Notes under the pieces: generated by a model
What the model saw: the letters and a program-made list of their open reading frames with translations, nothing else
What the model was told of the DNA's origin: nothing
Database searches by the model: none
Assembly: GCA_035489815.1 (NCBI GenBank)
Contig: DATHJH010000005.1
Coordinates: forward strand, 20,406 to 84,405
Origin: Candidatus Limnocylindria bacterium
GTDB lineage: Bacteria; Patescibacteriota; Saccharimonadia; Saccharimonadales; JAGQNK01
Direction: 5' to 3'
Length of the DNA: 64,000 bases
Position numbers and translations under genes: made by a program
Shown: piece after piece, positions 4,889 to 13,909 of the stretch
Position numbering within the stretch: position 1 is the stretch's first letter
Layout of the letters: each line of letters starts with the position of its first letter

Positions 4889-6421
4889 GTGGACGACTTT
4901 CAGAGACTCAGGCGCAAGGCTTACATCTACCTGATGTGTGTGCACGGGATTTTGATCCTGTTCGCACTTGGCTTCTTTCTGATTGCGACCGAAATGGGCT
5001 ATGACTTTCTGCCAGTAGCGTTTACCGACGGCCTCCTAACCCTAGTACTCGCTCACTTTGCAGCCAAAATATCCAGCCAGTTTGTTATGCAGCCTTTTCA
5101 CTTGCTGTGGCAGGCTATTTTGCACGTTGCGCCGGACAGCAATGCCGTGCCGCCGCCGAATATGCAAAAGTTGCTCTTTGGCCGGGAACTGGTAACCTCG
5201 TTAGCTAATCGGGTATACCAGTTTGCCAGCCAGCAGGACGGTACAGAACTGGCCAACCACCGCAAAGCCATTTCTCAGGCCGCGAACATTGTCAGCCACT
5301 TCCCGCTGCCGCTGTTTGTCTTTAACAAAGAGCAGGTAGTGACCAATGCCAGCAACTCGGCACTGGAATACTTGAATATTAAGAGCCCCCAGCTTTTTGG
5401 CCAGAAAATTTTTGATAGTGTTAACCTGGAATTCCAGGGCGAACACACCTTGGAGGCCTGGATAAAAGATTGTCAGGAAAACAAAGCCACAGACTACGGC
5501 GAATGGCACCGGGTGCATGTCGTACTGCGGGATGGCAAAACCGTCAAACAGTGCGACATCGCCGCCTACTACAATCGGGACAATGAAAGCGGGACAGAGT
5601 TTATCGTCACCTTTTTTGATCACACCGACGTATACAGCCAGGACGAACAAAGCCTCAGCTTTGTGGCTTTGGCGGTACACGAGCTGCGCACGCCCCTGAC
5701 CATGCTCCGGGGCTACATAGAGGTCTTTGAGGAAGAGCTGGAAGGCAAGCTGGACAAAGAGCTCGCCGACTACATGCATAAACTGCGCATCTCAACCGAC
5801 CAACTCACTGCCTTTGTATCCAACATCCTGAACGTCGTGCGGATAGAAGAAAACCAGTTGTCACTGACACTCGTTGAAAGCAAATGGGATCAACTGCTCA
5901 AGCAAGCTGCTGCCGGGCAACTCCTTCGTGCCCAAGTACTGGGCAAATCTATTACCTTTGTCGTAGAGGGCAAGCTGCCGACGGTGGCAGTCGATCCCGT
6001 TAGTATATCCGAGGTCGTCAACAACCTACTGGACAACGCCCTCAAATACAGTCCTACTAGTAAAGAGGTTATTGTCAAAGCCAGCATAAACCAGGAGGGC
6101 ATGATAGAAACCACCGTCCAGGACTTTGGAGTAGGCATCCCGGATAGTGTTATCCAAAACTTGTTTGAAAAGTTTTACCGTAACCACCGCACCCGTTCGC
6201 AAATTGGCGGCACGGGCCTGGGACTTTACCTAAGCAAGGCCATTGTCAACGCCCATGGCGGCAACATCTGGGTGCGGTCCAAGGTAGGGAAGGGCAGCAG
6301 CTTTAGCTTTACACTCCAGCCTTATGCTCAACTGGCTGACGAGCTTAAAAACAGCGACACCAGCGGCATTACCCGCCACGCCCATGGGTGGATTAAAAAC
6401 CACTCTATGTACAGAAGATAG
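4889..6421 (+). CDS. sensor histidine kinase
   Basis: 510 aa. N-terminal TM helices, H-box LAVHELRTPLTML, and HATPase G-boxes DFGVGIP and GGTGLGLYLSKAIV. GTG start in the track. Confidence 0.9.
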   Translation: MDDFQRLRRKAYIYLMCVHGILILFALGFFLIATEMGYDFLPVAFTDGLLTLVLAHFAAKISSQFVMQPFHLLWQAILHVAPDSNAVPPPNMQKLLFGRELVTSLANRVYQFASQQDGTELANHRKAISQAANIVSHFPLPLFVFNKEQVVTNASNSALEYLNIKSPQLFGQKIFDSVNLEFQGEHTLEAWIKDCQENKATDYGEWHRVHVVLRDGKTVKQCDIAAYYNRDNESGTEFIVTFFDHTDVYSQDEQSLSFVALAVHELRTPLTMLRGYIEVFEEELEGKLDKELADYMHKLRISTDQLTAFVSNILNVVRIEENQLSLTLVESKWDQLLKQAAAGQLLRAQVLGKSITFVVEGKLPTVAVDPVSISEVVNNLLDNALKYSPTSKEVIVKASINQEGMIETTVQDFGVGIPDSVIQNLFEKFYRNHRTRSQIGGTGLGLYLSKAIVNAHGGNIWVRSKVGKGSSFSFTLQPYAQLADELKNSDTSGITRHAHGWIKNHSMYRR

Positions 6422-6565: not shown

Positions 6566-6964
6566 ATGGACGAACCAACCACACCCACCGCCACTACAGC
6601 CAAAAAAGTCCTCTGTATAGAGGACGAGCATTTCATAAACGAACTCTACGCCCGGGCCCTTACCAAAGCCGGCTACCAAGTAAAGGTAGTCATAGATGGC
6701 GAAGAGGGCCTGCGCGAGGCACTGACCAACGCCTATGACATCATCTTGCTCGACATTATGCTGCCCAATCTCATAGGTACAGAGGTACTCAAGCGGCTAC
6801 GGGCCCAGCTCCCGGATCTCAGAGCCAAAATCATCATCACCACCAACCTGGAGTTAGGGGAAGAAGACCGGGCCGCCATAGAAGCCCAAGCCGATGGCTA
6901 TATAGTAAAAGCCGACCTCACCCCCCGCCAAATGGCCGAATTCCTCCAGCAGCTTGAGGTCTAA
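6566..6964 (+). CDS. single-domain response regulator (receiver only)
   Basis: 132 aa. CheY-like pattern (VLCIEDE, ILLDIMLP, TTN, K near the C-terminus). Its stop codon TAA lies inside the left inverted repeat of the IS. Confidence 0.9.
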   Translation: MDEPTTPTATTAKKVLCIEDEHFINELYARALTKAGYQVKVVIDGEEGLREALTNAYDIILLDIMLPNLIGTEVLKRLRAQLPDLRAKIIITTNLELGEEDRAAIEAQADGYIVKADLTPRQMAEFLQQLEV

Positions 6965-7076: not shown

Positions 7077-7368
7077 GTGAATCGTAAAACCTACCCCAGT
7101 GATGTGACTCGGAAACAATTTGACAGCATACAGCCAATCCTTGAGTCGGGCCCGCAGGAAAACTAAACCACGTGAGCTTGACCTCTACGACGTGTTCTGT
7201 GCCGTGTTGTATCTACTGAAGAGCGGCTGCCAGTGGGATATGCTGCCGAGTGACCTCCCGAAGAAAAGCTCGGTTCATGCCTACTTCACTATCTGGAAAG
7301 AGCAGCGTGTGGATGAAGGCGGAAACTCGCAGCCGAGTGTACTTGAGGAAGTCTTAAAAAAAAATTAG
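7077..7368 (+). pseudogene. IS5-family transposase N-terminal part (OrfA), internally frameshifted
   Basis: The GTG frame reads NRKTYPSDVTRKQFDSIQPILESGP, then stops at 7161-7163. The homologous continuation RRKTKPRELDLYDVFCAVLYLLKSGCQWDMLP is in the +1 frame (ORF 7120..7368). Confidence 0.65.
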
Positions 7369-7886
7369 TTGGCGAGGTTCGTATGTCCAATGGTCGGAAC
7401 AAGAGCACCACTTTTCTGATCATTGACGCCCAGTCCGTCAAGAACACCGACACTGCGAAAGAAAAAGGCTATGATGCCGGCAAGAAGGTCTCTGGCATAA
7501 AGCGGCACATTGCCGTTGACACCAATGGCTTACCTCACGCCATCCATGCGACCACAGCCAACGTCAGTGACAAGGCTGGCGCACGGGCTATGGTGGCAGC
7601 CTACCAGGAAGACTTGCAGCAAGTGGAGAAAGTACTGGTAGATGGGGGCTACCGAGGCCGACCGTTTGCTGACGCCATACAAACTGCGCTCAAGGCCGAG
7701 GTTGAGGTCGTCAAGCGCAATGAACTTCATACCTTCAAAGTGCTGCCGAAACGCTGGGTGGTGGAACGCTCACTATCCTGGCTTGAGAAGTGTCGAAGAC
7801 TCTGGAAGAACTGTGAACACTACTTAGCAACCAGCCTGCAGATGGTGGTGTTGGCCTTTGTTGCGCTTTTACTTAAAAGGTTTTAG
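7353..7886 (+). CDS. IS5-family DDE transposase catalytic part (OrfB)
   Basis: IIDAQSVKNTD...VDTNG...LVDGGYRG...VVERSLSWLEKCRRL is typical of DDE_Tnp_1. The frame opens at the A9 run (7356-7364), consistent with a -1 slip from OrfA. The listed ATG ORF is 7383..7886. Confidence 0.8.
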   Translation, partial: LKKKLVGEVRMSNGRNKSTTFLIIDAQSVKNTDTAKEKGYDAGKKVSGIKRHIAVDTNGLPHAIHATTANVSDKAGARAMVAAYQEDLQQVEKVLVDGGYRGRPFADAIQTALKAEVEVVKRNELHTFKVLPKRWVVERSLSWLEKCRRLWKNCEHYLATSLQMVVLAFVALLLKRF

Positions 7887-7955: not shown

Positions 7956-8525
7956 CTAAGGATCGGGCACTCCTTCAGTAAGCGCATCCAACACCGTAGT
8001 CGCCACTGCACCGGCCAGCCGGGCAAGTCTTTCCACGTCAGTATCAAAGCCCATGACCAACTCCTGCATTGTCCAGCTTTGAGGAGAAGAAGGGTCACTA
8101 TGGTCAAAGATATAGCCTGTTTCCATGGGACGAAAGGCACGTTCGTTAAAGGGCAACCCGGCCGAGAGCCTGTAATCATTCGAGCCAGGCGGACCAGCAA
8201 AAACTTGAACTATTACGTGGCCTCTTTGTGGCCAGATCCTTACAAACTCATCTCCTGCAGTTCTGTCCATACGCCTATTTGGCACCCGCGTTTGGTCTTC
8301 AAAGATCGCATCAATATCTCTGCCGTATACATCCGCGTGAGGCCAGATAGCCCCCACAATAGTCGGCCCTAGAGAGACCGGGAGTCCCAGCTTTTCGTAT
8401 ACCTCAAGCCCGTAGGTGCTGATGGTTTGCAGCTTTGCCTGTGCTTTACGCGCATCACCGGCCGTTACCCCTCTTGGAAATTCGCCTTTTGGTATACGAT
8501 GCCAGAAAGGGAAGTCTTCACTCAT
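7956..8525 (-). CDS. hypothetical protein
   Basis: 189-aa ORF. No motif recognised. Confidence 0.5.
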   Translation of the reverse strand: MSEDFPFWHRIPKGEFPRGVTAGDARKAQAKLQTISTYGLEVYEKLGLPVSLGPTIVGAIWPHADVYGRDIDAIFEDQTRVPNRRMDRTAGDEFVRIWPQRGHVIVQVFAGPPGSNDYRLSAGLPFNERAFRPMETGYIFDHSDPSSPQSWTMQELVMGFDTDVERLARLAGAVATTVLDALTEGVPDP

Positions 8526-8710
8526 ACTGACATTTTAGTATAAAATATCTTTAGCTGTGTGAGTATTTTTGCCCAAGAAGGCGAATCTCTACCCACAAGC
8601 TTATCTAACTACCTGGTCTTTGCTCAAGGTGAGTAATGGCTCCCAGCCAACAGCCACGCTGATTGGCTCAATCAGTTTCTGTTTTAGTCTTTTTTGAAAG
8701 GTAGTTAGAT

Positions 8711-9049
8711 ATGTATTACGAAAATCCCCAGGGCGTCTCTGTGCACGGTGGGTTTCCCAACCCAGCCACAGACGCCAGCCTCCAAGGCATTGATCTCAAC
8801 AAGTTATTAGTCCAAAACAGCGTCAGCACCTATCTGATGCGCATTGCCGGTAATGAATGGCAGGCGCTGGGCATTTTTGCTGGCGACATTATCATTGTGG
8901 ACCGAGCACTCGGGGCACACAAAACCGACCTGGTTATATGGGTCCAGGGCAGTGACCTGGCTATTTCGACCCGTCATACCGTACCCAAGGACGCACAGGT
9001 ATGGGGCGTAGTCACCAGTGTCATCCACCAGTACAGGAGGCAATCATGA
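8711..9049 (+). CDS. UmuD'-like protein (S24-peptidase fold, catalytic dyad apparently absent)
   Basis: GGFPNPATD...IDLNKLLVQN..TYLMRIAGNEW..GIFAGDIIIVD aligns by eye with E. coli UmuD CGFPSPAADY..IDLNQLLIQH..TYFVKASGDSM..GISDGDLLIVD. The Ser of GDSM is Glu here, and the Lys position reads STR. Confidence 0.7.
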   Translation: MYYENPQGVSVHGGFPNPATDASLQGIDLNKLLVQNSVSTYLMRIAGNEWQALGIFAGDIIIVDRALGAHKTDLVIWVQGSDLAISTRHTVPKDAQVWGVVTSVIHQYRRQS

Positions 9050-9068
9050 GCCGTATTGCCTCCACACC

Positions 9069-9098
9069 TGTCATTCCCGACTTGATCGGGAATCCGGT
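9069..9098. repeat. short hairpin related to the palindromic repeat core
   Basis: tgtcattcccgacttgatcgggaatccgg shares the gtcat.cc core motif. Lies between the umuD-like and umuC-like genes. Confidence 0.5.
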
Positions 9099-9161
9099 CA
9101 AAAACAAAGTCATTATAAATCCTTCGGTCAGGCCAAGCACAGCAGAAAGCGGGGGCAAGCA

Positions 9162-10445
9162 ATGAAAAATCCCGTCTTTGCCCTGATTGACTGCAATAAC
9201 TTCTTTGTCAGCTGCGAACGTGTTTTTCGCCCCGACCTCGCCACCAAACCAGTTGCCGTACTTTCCAGCAATGACGGCTGCGTCGTGGCCCGGAGTAACG
9301 AAGTCAAGGCGCTTGGCATCCCTATGGCGGCCCCGGCATTCAAGTACCGGGAAATCTTTGACCGCCACGGCATAGTGAAGTTCAGCGCCAACTTTGAACT
9401 CTACGGCAATATGTCGCGGCGCATTACCGAGCTGCTGACCACCATCACCCCGCGCATAGAAGTCTATTCCGTGGATGAATCGTTCCTGGACCTCAGCCAG
9501 CTGGATATCCGGGACCACACAGCGTGGGGGCATAAGGTCCGGGAATCCATCCTCCAGTGGACTGGCCTCCCCGTATCTATAGGGATCGCACCCAGCAAGT
9601 CCCTGGCCAAACTGGCCAGTGACCGCGGCAAGAAAGTACCAGCTCTTGATGGTGTACTAAGTTTGATGGGCAACCCAGAAACAGACTGGCATTTGAGCCA
9701 AGTACCCGTGGGCGACGTCTGGGGCATTGGCTGGCGGCTAGCGCCTAAAATGAGGGCAGAGGGGGCGGGCACGGCCCTGCACCTGGCTCAACTCAGCCCC
9801 CAGCGGGCCCAGCAGCTCATGGGCATCCGCGGCCGGCAGTTGGTGGCGGAACTAAACGGCATCAGTTGCTTTCCGCTAGATCTAGAGCACCAAAAACCCA
9901 AAAGCATCCTACGCAGCCGAACGTTCGGAGAAGACACCTCTCTAGCCAGCGTGATAGAAGCCGCCCTAGCATCGTTTGCTACCACGGCTGCTTTTCGTTT
10001 ACGACGCAGCAGCCAACTGGCCCGCAGGGCAGGAATATTCCTAGATACCAACAAACACAAACCCGGTTTCCGCCGCTGGAGCAGGGAAGTCATCTATCAG
10101 GTACCAACCGCAGACACGGGACAACTCATTAGCGACACCATAAACCTATTCAGCCAAATCTACAGCCCCAGAATGTCCTACCACAGAGCAGGGGTGTGGC
10201 TAGGTGATTTCAGGCCGGCAGACTATCTGCAAACAGACCTGCTGGGCGCCATAGATCCGGCCAAGCATGATCGAGCCCAAGCCCGCATGCAAGCCGTAGA
10301 CGTCCTAAATGAAAGATTCGGAAAACGCACCATCCGCTACGCCACCGAGGACCTTGCCCAAAAATGGCAACCCCGGCACCACACCCGCAGCCCCCGCTAC
10401 ACCACCCGCCCGGACGAACTGCCCACGGCAAAAATAGTGCCATGA
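9162..10445 (+). CDS. umuC: Y-family DNA polymerase, UmuC-like
   Basis: From the internal Met: MKNPVFALIDCNNFFVSCERVFRPDL..PVAVLSSNDGCVVARS..YSVDESFLDL closely parallels the UmuC N-terminus. The upstream part of ORF 9018.. overlaps a repeat and looks non-coding. Confidence 0.85.
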   Translation: MKNPVFALIDCNNFFVSCERVFRPDLATKPVAVLSSNDGCVVARSNEVKALGIPMAAPAFKYREIFDRHGIVKFSANFELYGNMSRRITELLTTITPRIEVYSVDESFLDLSQLDIRDHTAWGHKVRESILQWTGLPVSIGIAPSKSLAKLASDRGKKVPALDGVLSLMGNPETDWHLSQVPVGDVWGIGWRLAPKMRAEGAGTALHLAQLSPQRAQQLMGIRGRQLVAELNGISCFPLDLEHQKPKSILRSRTFGEDTSLASVIEAALASFATTAAFRLRRSSQLARRAGIFLDTNKHKPGFRRWSREVIYQVPTADTGQLISDTINLFSQIYSPRMSYHRAGVWLGDFRPADYLQTDLLGAIDPAKHDRAQARMQAVDVLNERFGKRTIRYATEDLAQKWQPRHHTRSPRYTTRPDELPTAKIVP

Positions 10446-10707: not shown

Positions 10708-10782
10708 GGCCTCATCGTCTAACGGTTAGGACACCAGGTTCTCATCCTGGCAATCGGGGTTCGATTCCCCGTGAGGTCACCA
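10708..10782 (+). tRNA. tRNA-Glu (anticodon CUC), CCA encoded
   Basis: Hand-folded cloverleaf: acceptor GGCCTCA/TGAGGTC, D arm GTCT-AACGGTTA-GGAC, anticodon arm CCAGG-TTCTCAT-CCTGG, T arm CGGGG-TTCGATT-CCCCG, then ACCA. Confidence 0.85.
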
Positions 10783-10933: not shown

Positions 10934-11365
10934 ATGTATATTGCAAATAAAGGTGCCTACCAGAAGCTTGCACATATCCGGTTGGATGAGGCCAAGCTGC
11001 TATTTGCGCAAGGACACTACTGCGGCGCTTTCTACCTTACGGGTTACTCTATTGAATGTGCACTGAAAGCAAAGATTGCAAAAAATTTACGAAAGATTGA
11101 TATCCCCGACCACAAAGTAGTAGAAAAGCACTTCACCCATAATTTACAGGATCTGCTTAGTCAGTCTGAGTTAAATGCAAAGCTTGGTAGGGCCTCCAAG
11201 CGAAACTCTCAACTTAGCGTAAACTGGGATATTATTGCAGGGTTGAATGGGTGGAGTGAAGAAAGTCGCTATAATGAGAGTGTGACAGAAGCAGAAGCCC
11301 AAAAGCTCCTAAATGCTGTTGATGATCCTAAAAATGGAATACTACAATGGATAGAAAAGAACTAA
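10934..11365 (+). CDS. HEPN-domain protein
   Basis: 143 aa. YSIECALKAKIA ... THNLQDLL ... EESRYNE matches the E..LKA / H.L..L / R.Y pattern of classical HEPN domains. Confidence 0.65.
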   Translation: MYIANKGAYQKLAHIRLDEAKLLFAQGHYCGAFYLTGYSIECALKAKIAKNLRKIDIPDHKVVEKHFTHNLQDLLSQSELNAKLGRASKRNSQLSVNWDIIAGLNGWSEESRYNESVTEAEAQKLLNAVDDPKNGILQWIEKN

Positions 11366-11730
11366 GAGAAGATTATATTGAATTGGGCAAAAAAGTCTTA
11401 GAAGGGCTTAATTCTGATTTTGCCGTCACTTCGGCATTTTGGTTCTTACTACCTGATTCTGGCTGGCGTTTTGTAGTTGCAACTCCCGTCTTAGACAGGG
11501 ATGGTCCCGCTAAGGCCTACGAGACGCTTCAAACTAAATTATCCGCAATACTAGGAACAGACAACTCATTCATTAATAATGTGTCGGTTGTTAGCCCAAG
11601 TAATTCTCTAATTAAATTGTTAAAGTCTGCTATAAATACAGGGCCTGATTCTATATCAGGGATTAGATTCACTGGGAACGTTATCAACAGCCAGTATATA
11701 GAGGGTGCCTACATATATCGCATTTCTTAA
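11347..11730 (+). CDS. hypothetical protein, translationally coupled partner of the HEPN gene
   Basis: 127 aa. Overlaps the HEPN gene by 19 nt. No nucleotidyltransferase GS..D.D motif seen. Confidence 0.5.
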   Translation: MDRKELREDYIELGKKVLEGLNSDFAVTSAFWFLLPDSGWRFVVATPVLDRDGPAKAYETLQTKLSAILGTDNSFINNVSVVSPSNSLIKLLKSAINTGPDSISGIRFTGNVINSQYIEGAYIYRIS

Positions 11731-12640: not shown

Positions 12641-13909
12641 TCACCCCTTCGCTTTATCGCCCATAATAATTTGGCGAAGTCCTTTCAGCTTGTGCAACAC
12701 CTCGTCGAAGGTAACTATCTCTACGTCCTTGCTGTTACTGCGAAGAAGTTCAAACGACTTGCGCTGTTTGGCGGACATTCCTTTGAGCATCCCAGCTACG
12801 ACGACGCATTTTGGATTGTAGGCTTCAAAGGCCTCCTCAGAGTTGCTACGTAGGTTGTAGAATTCTTTTTGTAGATTATCTCTTTGATCAAGAACCTGGT
12901 TGGTCGCGCCGCTCAACTCTTTATCTGCAGCAAATACATCATTTCCACGATATATTTGTTTTTTGAGCAAGGGAGTTCGATGGGTCTTGATCTCAATGAT
13001 GGCGACATTGTCTGTAAATTTGTTTTTATAGATAAAGTCGGTGACCTTGCCTTTCTTGTTGTCTATGCCCTTACCCCCTACGTAAGCCTTGTCCTGAAAG
13101 AATAAAACTGCAGATGTGAATAGTTGCGAAAAAATCCAGTTATACTTTTTGAAAAACTTTTGCCACTTTTCTTCCAGGCCATCAGTCTCAGTCTTTTGTT
13201 TTAGGAGTTCCTCAAATTCTTCTATAACGGCCTCGATATAAAACTCTTCAATTCTTTCTCGTGTCCTGAGAACAGCGCCCTCGTTATCAAGCAGATTGTC
13301 CTGAGCAGTCTTTTGTGCCAACCCAAGAATCGCATCTACGTCACCCGCTGACAACATTTCTGGTGTGATTTTACTGCGGTGTATATAGGCTCCAAGCCCA
13401 CCACCCACATATTTCACTTTTGGTGGTTTAAAGTCGGCAGGAAAAAGCGATGACAAGGAGACGGCTGCCTGAATATTTAACTCTTTTGAATGTCTGTCAA
13501 AAAGGGCGGATAGCTTCGGAAACTCTTGATCGAGTCTTTTGGCGTTGATGACTATCCTTGTGGGCCCTATGACACTGGGAAGATTCGGACTAATGACTAG
13601 CTCCTCAAGCTGACGGTCCTCAAACAGCACATTAGCCAATCGAGATAGGATTCGAGTGAATCCGTATCCACGACCCGGTGCTGTACTGAAACCCCGTTGA
13701 AGCTCGTCGGGCATATCTTTGAATACGAAACGCTTCACAGGATATTTCGGCTGACCGTCTCTGCGGAAGGGGTAGTGGATTACTTGTTCTCTGGTCTTGA
13801 AGACTTCTCGCGACTTAACTCGGATGTTATTGCGCTCGTCAATATATTCGTAGACCGTTTTCGTCTTCAGGTCTTTAGCGATTGTCTCGTATGGTTTTCT
13901 TGGTTTCAT
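12641..13909 (-). CDS. Shedu-like nuclease (SduA/DUF4263-type C-terminal domain)
   Basis: 422 aa. The C-terminal half carries a PD-(D/E)xK-like core GKVTDFIY...VAIIEIKTHRTPLL, then NQVLDQRDNL and VVVAGM...VEIVTFDEV, as I recall for DUF4263. Confidence 0.6.
   Translation of the reverse strand: MKPRKPYETIAKDLKTKTVYEYIDERNNIRVKSREVFKTREQVIHYPFRRDGQPKYPVKRFVFKDMPDELQRGFSTAPGRGYGFTRILSRLANVLFEDRQLEELVISPNLPSVIGPTRIVINAKRLDQEFPKLSALFDRHSKELNIQAAVSLSSLFPADFKPPKVKYVGGGLGAYIHRSKITPEMLSAGDVDAILGLAQKTAQDNLLDNEGAVLRTRERIEEFYIEAVIEEFEELLKQKTETDGLEEKWQKFFKKYNWIFSQLFTSAVLFFQDKAYVGGKGIDNKKGKVTDFIYKNKFTDNVAIIEIKTHRTPLLKKQIYRGNDVFAADKELSGATNQVLDQRDNLQKEFYNLRSNSEEAFEAYNPKCVVVAGMLKGMSAKQRKSFELLRSNSKDVEIVTFDEVLHKLKGLRQIIMGDKAKG

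What the first reader, a model, noticed from the sequence alone, without database searches (positions are those of the whole stretch)
8711..10445. UmuD'-like protein without the catalytic Ser-Lys dyad, paired with a UmuC-like polymerase
The 112-aa protein aligns by eye with E. coli UmuD from the cleavage-site region onward.
- It starts only about 14 residues before the GFP(S/N)PA motif, so it resembles the already processed UmuD'.
- The nucleophile Ser of G-D-S-M reads G-N-E-W.
- The general-base Lys region reads A-I-S-T-R.
- The C-terminal region is about 25 aa shorter.

The downstream gene is a clear UmuC-type Y-family polymerase. This suggests a Pol V-like mutasome whose accessory subunit does not need RecA-stimulated self-cleavage. 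That would be a constitutively mature UmuD', which would decouple translesion synthesis from the classical SOS checkpoint.
Basis: partly seen in the sequence, partly recalled or inferred. Interest (0 to 1): 0.55.

Follow-up and report, generated by a model that had tools for sequence, protein, structure and literature searches.

The report
Protease-dead UmuD partner of UmuC polymerase
A small helper protein of an error-prone DNA-repair polymerase has, across a whole group of tiny bacteria (Saccharibacteria), lost the self-cutting machinery that normally switches it on. Its operon instead sits behind a conserved, previously uncatalogued folded RNA leader that hides the ribosome-binding site.

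Summary
ORF 8711-9049 (112 aa) is a true UmuD/S24 homolog. E49 replaces the Ser nucleophile, S86 replaces the Lys base, there is no Ala/Cys-Gly cleavage site, and about 20 residues are deleted internally after the Lys position. A complete UmuC gene follows at 9162-10445.

This is a conserved family under purifying selection. It was found in 179 species-level genomes, nearly all Saccharibacteria, and umuC lies directly downstream in 78 of 80 loci.

The reading [quoted passage not shown] is well supported. "Constitutively mature UmuD'" is only partly supported, because a conserved 13-residue extension precedes the UmuD' N-terminus. "Decoupled from SOS control" is not supported:
- UmuC keeps its RecA-NT-like motif and its UmuD'-binding tail.
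- The operon carries a conserved ~160-nt structured 5' leader (8551-8710) whose long-range helix pairs with the Shine-Dalgarno sequence up to the start codon. The helix covaries strongly and has no Rfam match.

A naturally pre-truncated UmuD' is already known (phage P1 HumD), so the protein is a new variant of a known kind. The RNA leader is the more novel element. Its 5' domain also precedes an unannotated ~82-aa protein next to Y-family polymerase genes in metagenomes.

The parts
8517..8546 (+). Promoter-like site (TTCACT, 18-nt spacer, TAAAAT) directly upstream of the leader
   Evidence: Consensus scan. A TATAAT/TATACT box sits at the same place just 5' of the leader in the orthologous loci (alignment). 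This is inferred; no transcript data are available.
8551..8602 (+). Leader domain I: 5'-terminal stem P1 (AGCUGUGUGAGUA / UACCCACAAGCU) enclosing hairpin P2, with invariant loop bases (GUAYU, UYUCYAC)
   Evidence: Model R2 hit of 45.7 bits, E 1e-11, the only hit in the 64-kb window. Across 35 sequences, 91.7% of cells are paired against 28-50% when the partners are slid. Covariation score 0.46 against about 0.1, with 0/500 shuffles reaching it.
8603..8614 (+). Anti-SD arm (AUCUAACUACCU), 5' strand of the long-range helix P3
   Evidence: Perfect 12-bp complement of 8699-8710. The helix has 12 pairs, 8 with compensatory changes, and 83% of cells paired in 20 sequences (helix 4).
8616..8640 (+). 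Hairpin P4 (GUCUUUGCUCA...UGAGUAAUGGC), with conserved GUCUUY and GAUGRCUC flanks
   Evidence: helix 5: 7 pairs, 5 with compensatory changes.
8645..8668 (+). Hairpin P5 (AGCCAA...UUGGCU). It overlaps a weak terminator-like hairpin at 8658-8676 followed by a U-rich tract
   Evidence: Minimum-free-energy fold and terminator-like scan. In a subgroup of orthologous leaders this position instead holds a GUCGCC...GGCGAC element.
8699..8710 (+). Shine-Dalgarno region and spacer up to the start codon (AGGUAGUUAGAU), 3' strand of P3
   Evidence: The whole leader 8551-8716 folds at -56.9 kcal/mol, z = -5.0 against 200 shuffles.
8711..9049 (+). umuD-like gene: 112-aa S24-fold protein without Ser/Lys dyad or cleavage site, with a conserved N-terminal arm
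9046..9165 (+). 113-nt spacer between the two genes. It holds a 39-aa ORF with ATGA overlaps at both ends and a hairpin at 9073-9093. This is probably not a gene
   Evidence: No tblastn match in any of 80 orthologous loci. In most loci umuC starts 0-30 nt after the umuD-like stop. A gene caller did call the ORF on the public contig.
9162..10445 (+). umuC: Y-family polymerase, 427 aa, collinear with E. coli UmuC
   Evidence: Pfam IMS 7e-37, IMS_C 3e-18, DUF4113 4e-17. NCBIfam UmuC PRK03609 gives 327 bits over positions 1-422 of 422. [quoted passage not shown]

Best explanation
The locus encodes a Pol V-type translesion polymerase whose small subunit is a protease-dead, cleavage-independent UmuD derivative.

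**The protein.**
- It keeps the two parts that matter for the UmuD' role in Pol V. These are the flexible N-terminal arm (GFPNPATD..LQ.IDLN, here extended by a conserved MYYENPxGVSVHx) and the beta core with the C-terminal VWGVVT.VIH strand.
- It has lost the Ser-Lys dyad, the Ala/Cys-Gly scissile bond, and the roughly 20-residue segment that follows the lysine.
- It is therefore made in its final form.

[quoted passage not shown] The arm should insert into the palm/little-finger cleft, while UmuC still recruits RecA through its RecA-NT-like motif.

**Control of the operon.** The post-translational timer of E. coli is absent, so control sits elsewhere. The operon is transcribed with a conserved ~160-nt leader. 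Its 5' domain I is followed directly by an anti-SD arm that pairs with the Shine-Dalgarno sequence and spacer up to the AUG. Translation of the umuD-like gene should therefore be off by default, until an unknown factor acting on the leader opens that helix.

**Shown:** homology, loss of the catalytic residues, family-wide conservation and purifying selection, operon linkage, and conservation and covariation of the RNA structure.

**Inferred:** subunit contacts, RecA dependence, and the regulatory action and signal of the leader.
For: **Homology and fold:** (NCBIfam UmuD subfamily E 8e-20).

**Loss of dyad and cleavage site across the family:** for 89 proteins. One search shows dozens of 50%-identity clusters of short, dyad-less forms with the deletion.

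**Functional constraint:**
- 179 species-level genomes carry a relative.
- Non-synonymous differences are 0.17-0.31 per site against 0.66-0.91 synonymous.
- The N-terminal arm is the most conserved part.

**Operon:** umuC lies directly downstream in 78 of 80 loci.

**UmuC completeness:** catalytic residues, RecA-NT-like motif and C-tail are present.

**Published roles of these parts:** PMC6511836 for the UmuC C-tail and RecA-NT motif, and PMC12926913 for the UmuD' N-terminal arm.

**Precedent:** P1 HumD starts at M-GFPSPA and its record notes that it complements E. coli UmuD' (McLenigan et al. 1999, cited).

**Leader:**. There is no Rfam family at E<=10 and none at gathering threshold.
Against: - The 13-residue conserved extension means the N-terminus is not that of UmuD'. 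In the Pol V model the very N-terminus lies near the UmuC active site, so the extension could alter or even block activity.
- The N-terminal 18 residues are unmodelled (pLDDT below 50). No complex could be modelled with these tools.
- The NCBIfam scores for UmuD (71 against 110), HumD (40.7 against 120) and UmuC (327 against 431) are all below the curated cut-offs.
- About half of the orthologous operons lack the leader and look leaderless, with a -10 box next to the ATG. The leader is therefore not obligatory for the system.
- No expression, RecA or LexA data exist for these organisms here.
Confidence: 0.6

Rival explanations
1. The protein is a permanent, non-cleavable 'UmuD-like brake'. Like full-length or non-cleavable UmuD in E. 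coli, it would hold UmuC in a non-mutagenic checkpoint state. It would be removed by degradation or displacement rather than by cleavage.
For: The region just before the conserved Gly (G8 V9 S10 V11 H12), which corresponds to the cleavage-site strand of UmuD, is nearly invariant even though nothing is cleaved. The N-terminus therefore extends beyond that of UmuD' and HumD. That non-cleavable UmuD blocks mutagenesis in E. coli is established knowledge.
Against: Only 13 of the 24 residues of the UmuD pro-segment remain, and they share no similarity with UmuD 1-11. Some relatives among the cluster representatives start only 1-8 residues before the Gly, for example P0205 MGFPSPA, so a long arm is not required across this wider group. 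An inhibitor that is always co-translated with its target, with no release mechanism, is hard to rationalise.
Confidence: 0.17
2. The protein is still processed to a UmuD'-like form, but in trans, by another S24 protein or another protease. The dead active site would then not mean constitutive maturity.
For: The Gly of the scissile bond is invariant (89/89) and the flanking strand is conserved. Intermolecular cleavage of UmuD is known in E. coli (established knowledge).
Against: The residue before the Gly is highly variable: D29, G28, S10, T8, A3 and others. This is unlike the Ala/Cys required by S24 enzymes. No second S24 gene is seen in the window or in the 12-kb flanks of 80 loci.
Confidence: 0.07
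3. The gene is a decaying remnant of umuD with no function, and UmuC works alone or with RecA only.
For: Catalytic residues are lost, a segment is deleted, and scores fall below the curated family cut-offs.
Against: The gene keeps its length and sequence in 179 species-level genomes. Synonymous sites are saturated while non-synonymous differences stay at 0.17-0.31. The gene lies directly upstream of umuC in 78 of 80 loci. The fold is predicted with confidence.
Confidence: 0.02
4. The conserved upstream element is not a regulatory RNA. It could be a DNA operator, or simply a stabilising 5' stem-loop plus fortuitous pairing with the ribosome-binding site.
For: Domain I starts at the predicted transcription start and contains the palindromic hexamer AGTACT in most loci. 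Loci without the leader show GTAC-N7-GTAC palindromes over the -10 box. No ligand or binding protein is known.
Against: Compensatory changes and many G-U pairs occur on the + strand only, in P1, P2, P3 and P4. The P3 arms lie about 85 nt apart and covary. All 43 sources with a domain I hit carry it on the + strand, one per source. z = -5.0.
Confidence: 0.12

Closest known systems
E. coli UmuD / UmuD' (Pol V accessory subunit, peptidase family S24)
   Same: Same fold (TM 0.68-0.71 to 1ay9). About 40% identity over the arm and first strands. GFP(S/N)PA arm and C-terminal VxGVV strand. Gene lies immediately upstream of umuC. The UmuC partner has the same domain order, RecA-NT-like motif and C-tail.
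   Different: No Ser60 or Lys97. No Cys/Ala-Gly site. Only 13 residues before the Gly instead of 24. About 20 residues deleted after the Lys position. Cannot self-cleave. No LexA box of the CGAAC-N4-GTTCG type near the operon. A structured leader takes the place of the short E. coli 5' region.
Bacteriophage P1 HumD (naturally pre-truncated UmuD' homolog; McLenigan et al. 1999, J Bacteriol 181:7005, cited)
   Same: Made in final form without RecA-mediated cleavage. The NCBIfam HumD model gives a weak hit (E 2e-10). The P1 record notes that it complements E. coli UmuD'.
   Different: HumD starts exactly at M-GFPSPA, keeps the full-length core, and still has Ser (ADSH) and Lys (RIKRY) at the dyad positions. 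It is phage-borne, has no cognate umuC, and is preceded by an annotated LexA site. The window protein is chromosomal, lineage-wide, paired with umuC, dyad-less and carries the deletion.
YolD/YqjX small subunits of Bacillus YqjW/UvrX polymerases (PMC6511836, PMC12926913)
   Same: Non-proteolytic small partner encoded next to a UmuC-like polymerase. An N-terminal arm plus a small beta core is proposed as the functional unit.
   Different: YolD is not an S24 homolog by sequence, whereas the window protein clearly is. YolD is predicted to be monomeric.
SD-sequestering riboswitches and cis-regulatory leaders
   Same: A 5' conserved structured domain is followed by an anti-SD strand that pairs with the ribosome-binding site. 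Covariation supports the helices.
   Different: No match to any of 4227 Rfam families. No known ligand. Associated only with translesion-polymerase operons (umuD-like/umuC and protein X) in the loci examined.

Membership tests
Peptidase S24 / UmuD autoproteolytic subunit | Sequence and fold homology to the S24 C-terminal domain | tested here: met
   Pfam PF00717 at 25.7 bits, above the 23.3 cut-off. PDB UmuD E 2e-11. Foldseek top hits are UmuD', then the LexA C-domain.
Peptidase S24 / UmuD autoproteolytic subunit | Ser nucleophile (UmuD S60) in G-D-S-M | tested here: not met
   E49 in the window protein. Across 89 homologs: E40, D25, N7, Q5, S4, L3, A2, G2, T1.
Peptidase S24 / UmuD autoproteolytic subunit | Lys general base (UmuD K97) | tested here: not met
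   S86 in the window protein. Across the family: S81, G3, T2, C2, R1, never K.
Peptidase S24 / UmuD autoproteolytic subunit | Ala/Cys-Gly scissile bond preceded by a removable N-terminal segment | tested here: not met
   The Gly is invariant, but the preceding residue is D29/G28/S10/T8/A3 and others. Only 13 residues lie upstream.
Peptidase S24 / UmuD autoproteolytic subunit | NCBIfam curated cut-off for the Pol V autoproteolytic subunit (PRK10276) | tested here: not met
   71 bits against a cut-off of 110.
UmuD'-type accessory subunit of a Pol V-like polymerase (functional class, includes HumD) | Conserved N-terminal arm (GFPxPA...DLN) and C-terminal beta strand | tested here: met
   G14, F15, P16, N17, A19, D21, Q25, D28, L29, N30, W98, G99 and T102 are invariant or nearly so in 78 sequences. 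The arm is more conserved than the core.
UmuD'-type accessory subunit of a Pol V-like polymerase (functional class, includes HumD) | N-terminus at the position of UmuD' Gly25 | tested here: not met
   A 13-residue conserved extension is present. HumD starts M-G. Fifty-nine of 89 family members have exactly 13 residues before the Gly.
UmuD'-type accessory subunit of a Pol V-like polymerase (functional class, includes HumD) | Encoded with, and binding to, a UmuC that has the C-terminal UmuD'-binding tail | tested here: inconclusive
   Gene linkage holds in 78 of 80 loci. The UmuC tail ...SPRYTTR.. is conserved. Physical binding and dimerisation could not be tested, because no multimer modelling was available.
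UmuC (Pol V catalytic subunit) | Y-family core with catalytic Asp and Asp-Glu, plus a C-terminal extension (DUF4113) holding the RecA-NT-like motif and tail | tested here: met
   Pfam IMS, IMS_C and DUF4113. Full-length alignment to E. coli UmuC with IDCNNFFVSCE, SVDESF, LNERFGKRTIRYATEDL and SPRYTTR. The NCBIfam UmuC model matches end to end, but at 327 bits, below the 431 cut-off.
Known RNA families (Rfam 15) | Match of the leader to a curated covariance model | tested here: not met
   No hit at E<=10 in 8300-9300 apart from a chance PhrS match on the opposite strand inside the spacer. At gathering threshold the whole window gives only a tRNA.
Riboswitch / cis-regulatory leader (general class) | Conserved secondary structure with covariation, on the sense strand in a 5' UTR, with an expression platform | tested here: met
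   P3 pairs the SD region up to position -1.
Riboswitch / cis-regulatory leader (general class) | Binding of a specific ligand or factor that changes expression | not testable with these tools
   Needs in-line probing or reporter assays.

The most novel reading that the evidence does not exclude
In Saccharibacteria and related reduced-genome bacteria, control of Pol V-type mutagenesis has moved from protein self-cleavage to RNA. A new class of structured mRNA leader would sense a so far unknown damage- or growth-related signal and gate translation of the accessory subunits of Y-family polymerases. The leader consists of a conserved 5' domain I plus a helix that hides the ribosome-binding site. 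The accessory subunits are the protease-dead UmuD and/or an uncharacterised ~82-aa all-beta protein, 'X'.
Probability: 0.25. Interest if true: 0.75.

Novelty: new variant of a known kind. Interest (0 to 1): 0.58.

Why it matters
**The protein.** RecA-stimulated UmuD cleavage is the textbook late checkpoint that delays mutagenic synthesis. A whole lineage that keeps UmuD and UmuC but has discarded the protease shows which parts of UmuD are needed for the polymerase: the arm and the beta core. It also shows that the timing function can be dispensed with or relocated. This gives a natural minimal UmuD' for structural and biochemical work.

**The leader.** The RNA leader gives a testable handle on how organisms with very small genomes regulate mutagenesis. 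If it proves to be a sensor, it would be, to my knowledge, the first RNA-based control of a Pol V-type operon.

Tried and rejected
- **39-aa ORF 9046-9165.** I tested whether it is a conserved third gene. There was no tblastn hit in 80 orthologous loci, and most loci have almost no spacer. Rejected.
- **Gram-positive-type LexA box (CGAAC-N4-GTTCG).** The count in the window is at chance level and none lies near the operon.
- **recA or lexA nearby.** None was found in the window or the 12-kb flanks. This says nothing about the whole genomes.
- **Rfam.** The leader has no match.
- **RNAalifold on a plain MAFFT alignment.** It recovered only domain I, because the 3' part was misaligned. I therefore took the consensus from the individual minimum-free-energy folds and tested it with pair counts.
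- **Literature.** No paper combines UmuD with Saccharibacteria, and none links a riboswitch candidate with umuC. The HumD paper and the 2017 Patescibacteria SOS paper are not held.
- **Protein X.** No Pfam or NCBIfam family and no PDB fold match.
- **P0095.** This 1282-aa protein with 23 'stretches' is a low-complexity artefact.
Full report
**1. The observation**

The window holds an ORF at 8711-9049 (+) of 112 aa, followed on the same strand by a long ORF ending at 10445. The short protein is a UmuD homolog:
- It passes the Pfam Peptidase_S24 threshold.
- It aligns without gaps to E. coli UmuD residues 22-96, with E 2e-11 against PDB chain 8gmt_B and 7.5e-11 against UmuD' 1umu.
The scissile Cys24-Gly25 is Gly13-Gly14, Ser60 is Glu49 (G-N-E-W), and Lys97 is Ser86 (A-I-S-T-R).

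I checked my remembered UmuD sequence against the K-12 record and it is identical.

The AlphaFold2 model, built with a 78-sequence alignment, has pLDDT 82. Its first 18 residues are disordered. Its best structural matches are UmuD' (1ay9, TM 0.68/0.71, rmsd 2.3 A), then UmuD on RecA, then LexA C-domains.

What is missing is an internal stretch, with 9 residues where UmuD has 29 after Lys97.

The polymerase most likely starts at ATG 9162 (427 aa). It has the IMS, IMS_C and DUF4113 domains.

**2. A family, not an accident**

A search of 5.8 billion proteins found 89 proteins of about 112 aa at 53-100% identity. Four canonical UmuDs appeared only far below them. Across the 89:
- The Ser position is Glu, Asp, Asn or Gln in 77, and Ser in only 4.
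- The Lys position is Ser in 81 and never Lys.
- The residue before the invariant Gly varies freely.
- All share the deletion.

A scan of one genome per species found 179 genomes with a relative. Almost all are labelled Saccharibacteria or Saccharimonadales, and one is the complete genome CP025011.1. NCBI labels the identical protein 'Candidatus Limnocylindria bacterium'. Given the relatives and the synteny, the window most likely comes from a Saccharibacterium.

In 78 of 80 fetched loci a UmuC ortholog lies directly downstream. In the other two, too little sequence follows the gene for umuC to be seen: about 20 nt in L028 and about 520 nt in L023.

Between the window gene and its orthologs, synonymous sites are saturated (0.66-0.91) while non-synonymous differences are 0.17-0.31. 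The gene is therefore under purifying selection.

An exhaustive profile search of 1.84 billion cluster representatives widened the picture:
- Short, dyad-less forms with the deletion fill dozens of 50%-identity clusters.
- Some begin right at the Gly, for example P0205 (MGFPSPA..., GNAM).
- Some are tandem double-domain proteins.
- Canonical AG/GDSM/K forms appear only from about E 1e-20.

**3. The partner polymerase**

The UmuC ortholog aligns with E. coli UmuC over its whole length. It keeps:
- the catalytic Asp and Asp-Glu (IDCNNFFVSCE, SVDESF);
- the stretch LNERFGKRTIRYATEDL, which resembles the RecA N-terminus IEKQFGKGSIMRLGED;
- the terminal ...SPRYTTR... tail.

According to Timinskas and Venclovas (PMC6511836), the first of the two C-terminal elements is the RecA-binding 'RecA-NT-like' motif. 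The last ~28 residues are the main UmuD'-binding site. Their later model (PMC12926913) has one UmuD' bound to that tail. The other UmuD' inserts its N-terminal arm between the palm and little finger, with its N-terminus near the active site.

In the window family the arm is the most conserved region. Mean column identity is 0.78 for residues 1-13 and 0.85 for 14-33, against 0.63 for the core.

**4.

The protein cannot activate itself by cleavage, so it is made in its final form.

It is not simply UmuD', however. Thirteen conserved residues (MYYENPxGVSVHx) precede the UmuD' N-terminus, and 59 of 89 members have exactly 13. Whether they extend the arm productively or restrain the polymerase cannot be decided here.

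The idea that translesion synthesis is thereby freed from SOS control is not supported. RecA activation of UmuC is probably retained, and the operon has its own elaborate 5' control region (section 5).

A natural, cleavage-independent UmuD' is already known, namely phage P1 HumD:
- Its gene starts M-GFPSPA and still has Ser and Lys at the dyad positions.
- It has an annotated LexA site, and the record notes that it complements UmuD' (McLenigan et al. 1999, cited).
- YolD/YqjX are non-homologous analogs.

I found no paper describing the Saccharibacterial form. The two broad surveys of bacterial Y-family systems do not mention these phyla or dyad-less UmuDs.

**5. The leader**

Aligning the upstream regions of the orthologs revealed a conserved element. 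After a -10 box comes the following:
- **Domain I.** A 12-bp stem P1 encloses a variable hairpin P2, with invariant bases GUACU and UUUCYAC in the internal loop.
- **P3.** Directly after domain I, a 10-13-nt arm is complementary to the Shine-Dalgarno sequence and spacer right up to the AUG, about 85 nt downstream. In the window this is AUCUAACUACCU (8603-8614) with AGGUAGUUAGAU (8699-8710).
- **P4 and P5.** These hairpins lie inside the P3 helix.

Individual minimum-free-energy folds of 29 leaders give the same architecture in nearly all of them. Support from pair counts and searches:
- On a 20-sequence alignment the consensus has 83.5% of cells paired, against 35-43% when the partners are slid. 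Twenty-three of 37 pairs have compensatory changes, and no shuffle out of 500 reaches the observed covariation.
- Domain I alone, on 35 sequences that include metagenomic ones, has 91.7% of cells paired and a covariation score of 0.46 against about 0.1.
- The window leader folds at -56.9 kcal/mol, z = -5.0.
- Covariance models find exactly one copy in the window (8551-8713, 90 bits; domain I 8551-8602). Model R2 finds one domain I copy in each of 42 of the 80 loci, always on the sense strand upstream of the operon. The full-length model R1 additionally gives one weak second hit in L022 (28 bits), just upstream of a gene X located elsewhere in that locus.
- Rfam has no matching family.

The remaining loci have a -10 box 5-10 nt before the ATG. 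These are leaderless-type starts, often with GTAC-N7-GTAC palindromes. The leader is thus one of two alternative 5' arrangements.

**6. Reach of domain I**

In 23 of the 80 loci an ~82-aa protein ('X') is present. It usually lies between the leader and the umuD-like gene.

A metagenome scan with a domain I pattern, followed by the covariance model, gave 25 further loci. In these the next gene is nearly always an X homolog. In three loci (L116, L133, L145) X is followed directly by a Y-family polymerase gene.

X has no Pfam or NCBIfam family, and all 84 homologs are 'hypothetical'. Its model is a confident seven-strand all-beta fold (pLDDT 92.5) with no significant PDB match. X is absent from the window.

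In the loci examined, domain I therefore marks translesion-polymerase operons. This is the basis for proposing that it is the sensing or recognition part of the leader. The mechanism and the signal remain inferred.

**7. Context in the window**

- Upstream lie a histidine kinase (4889-6421) and a single-domain response regulator (6566-6964).
- In many orthologous loci the leader follows that response regulator directly: the conserved ...PRQMAEFL.QL* end is visible.
- In the window, an IS5-type element (7120-7886, split into two ORFs) and an unannotated reverse ORF (7956-8525) have come between them.
- Downstream lie a tRNA (10708-10779), a HEPN protein and a Shedu SduA-like protein.

**8. Verdict**

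The protein is a new variant of a known kind: a UmuD'-type accessory subunit that has become a pseudo-protease. Its mechanistic reading is well grounded in homology but untested.

The claim of decoupling from damage control is not supported.

The most novel element is the conserved SD-sequestering leader, which deserves experimental follow-up.

Noticed in passing
window 8551-8710 (+); orthologs e.g. L041:3497-3660, L045:5834-5997: A conserved ~160-nt structured 5' leader of the umuD-like/umuC operon. It has a 5' domain I and a long-range helix that pairs the Shine-Dalgarno region up to the AUG. Covariation is strong and there is no Rfam family. It is a candidate new cis-regulatory RNA.
   Followed up: yes
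L011:5695-5934, L042:5729-5968, L039:5750-5989; metagenome loci L108, L145, L133 and others (not in the window): An ~82-90-aa protein family ('X') lies directly behind the same leader domain I, upstream of the umuD-like gene or of a Y-family polymerase gene. It has no Pfam or NCBIfam family. AF2 gives a confident seven-strand all-beta model with no PDB fold match. It may be a further small polymerase partner.
   Followed up: partly
L033, L036, L040, L050, L065, L067 and others, the 25 nt before the umuD-like ATG: About half of the orthologous operons lack the leader. Instead they have a -10 box (TACAAT/TATAAT) 5-10 nt before the ATG, which suggests leaderless mRNA. This box is often embedded in GTAC-N7-GTAC palindromes such as CGTACAATAGATGTACG, a possible repressor operator.
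   Followed up: partly
window 9046-9165 (+): A 39-aa ORF fills the umuD-like/umuC spacer, with ATGA stop/start overlaps at both ends and an 8-bp hairpin at 9073-9093. A gene caller called it on the public contig, but it is not conserved in any of 80 orthologous loci.
   Followed up: yes
window 7120-7886 (+) and 7956-8525 (-): An IS4/IS5-family transposase split into two ORFs (DUF4096 and DDE_Tnp_1), plus an unannotated 189-aa reverse ORF. They sit between the response regulator and the leader. In many related genomes the leader directly follows the response-regulator gene, so this looks like an insertion.
   Followed up: partly
window 10934-11730 (+) and 12641-13909 (-): A HEPN-domain protein overlaps a 127-aa ORF, which may be a toxin-antitoxin-like pair. 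A Shedu SduA_C-domain protein lies nearby. Together they form a small defence-gene cluster just downstream of umuC and a tRNA (10708-10779).
   Followed up: no
proteins P0124, P0125, P0128: Proteins of 250-290 aa made of two tandem UmuD-like S24 modules, the first with a degenerate Ser motif. They could be single-chain equivalents of a UmuD' dimer. Their origin and context are unknown.
   Followed up: no
protein P0001 (identical to window 8711-9049): NCBI names the identical protein as from 'Candidatus Limnocylindria bacterium' (Chloroflexota). All close relatives and the synteny point to Saccharibacteria, so this is probably a binning or labelling error in the source MAG.
   Followed up: partly
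window 8658-8676 (+): A weak terminator-like hairpin with a U-rich tail lies inside the leader. It overlaps the 3' strand of hairpin P5, so P5 and this hairpin are mutually exclusive. It could be an attenuator in this particular leader, but it is not evident in the orthologs.
   Followed up: no
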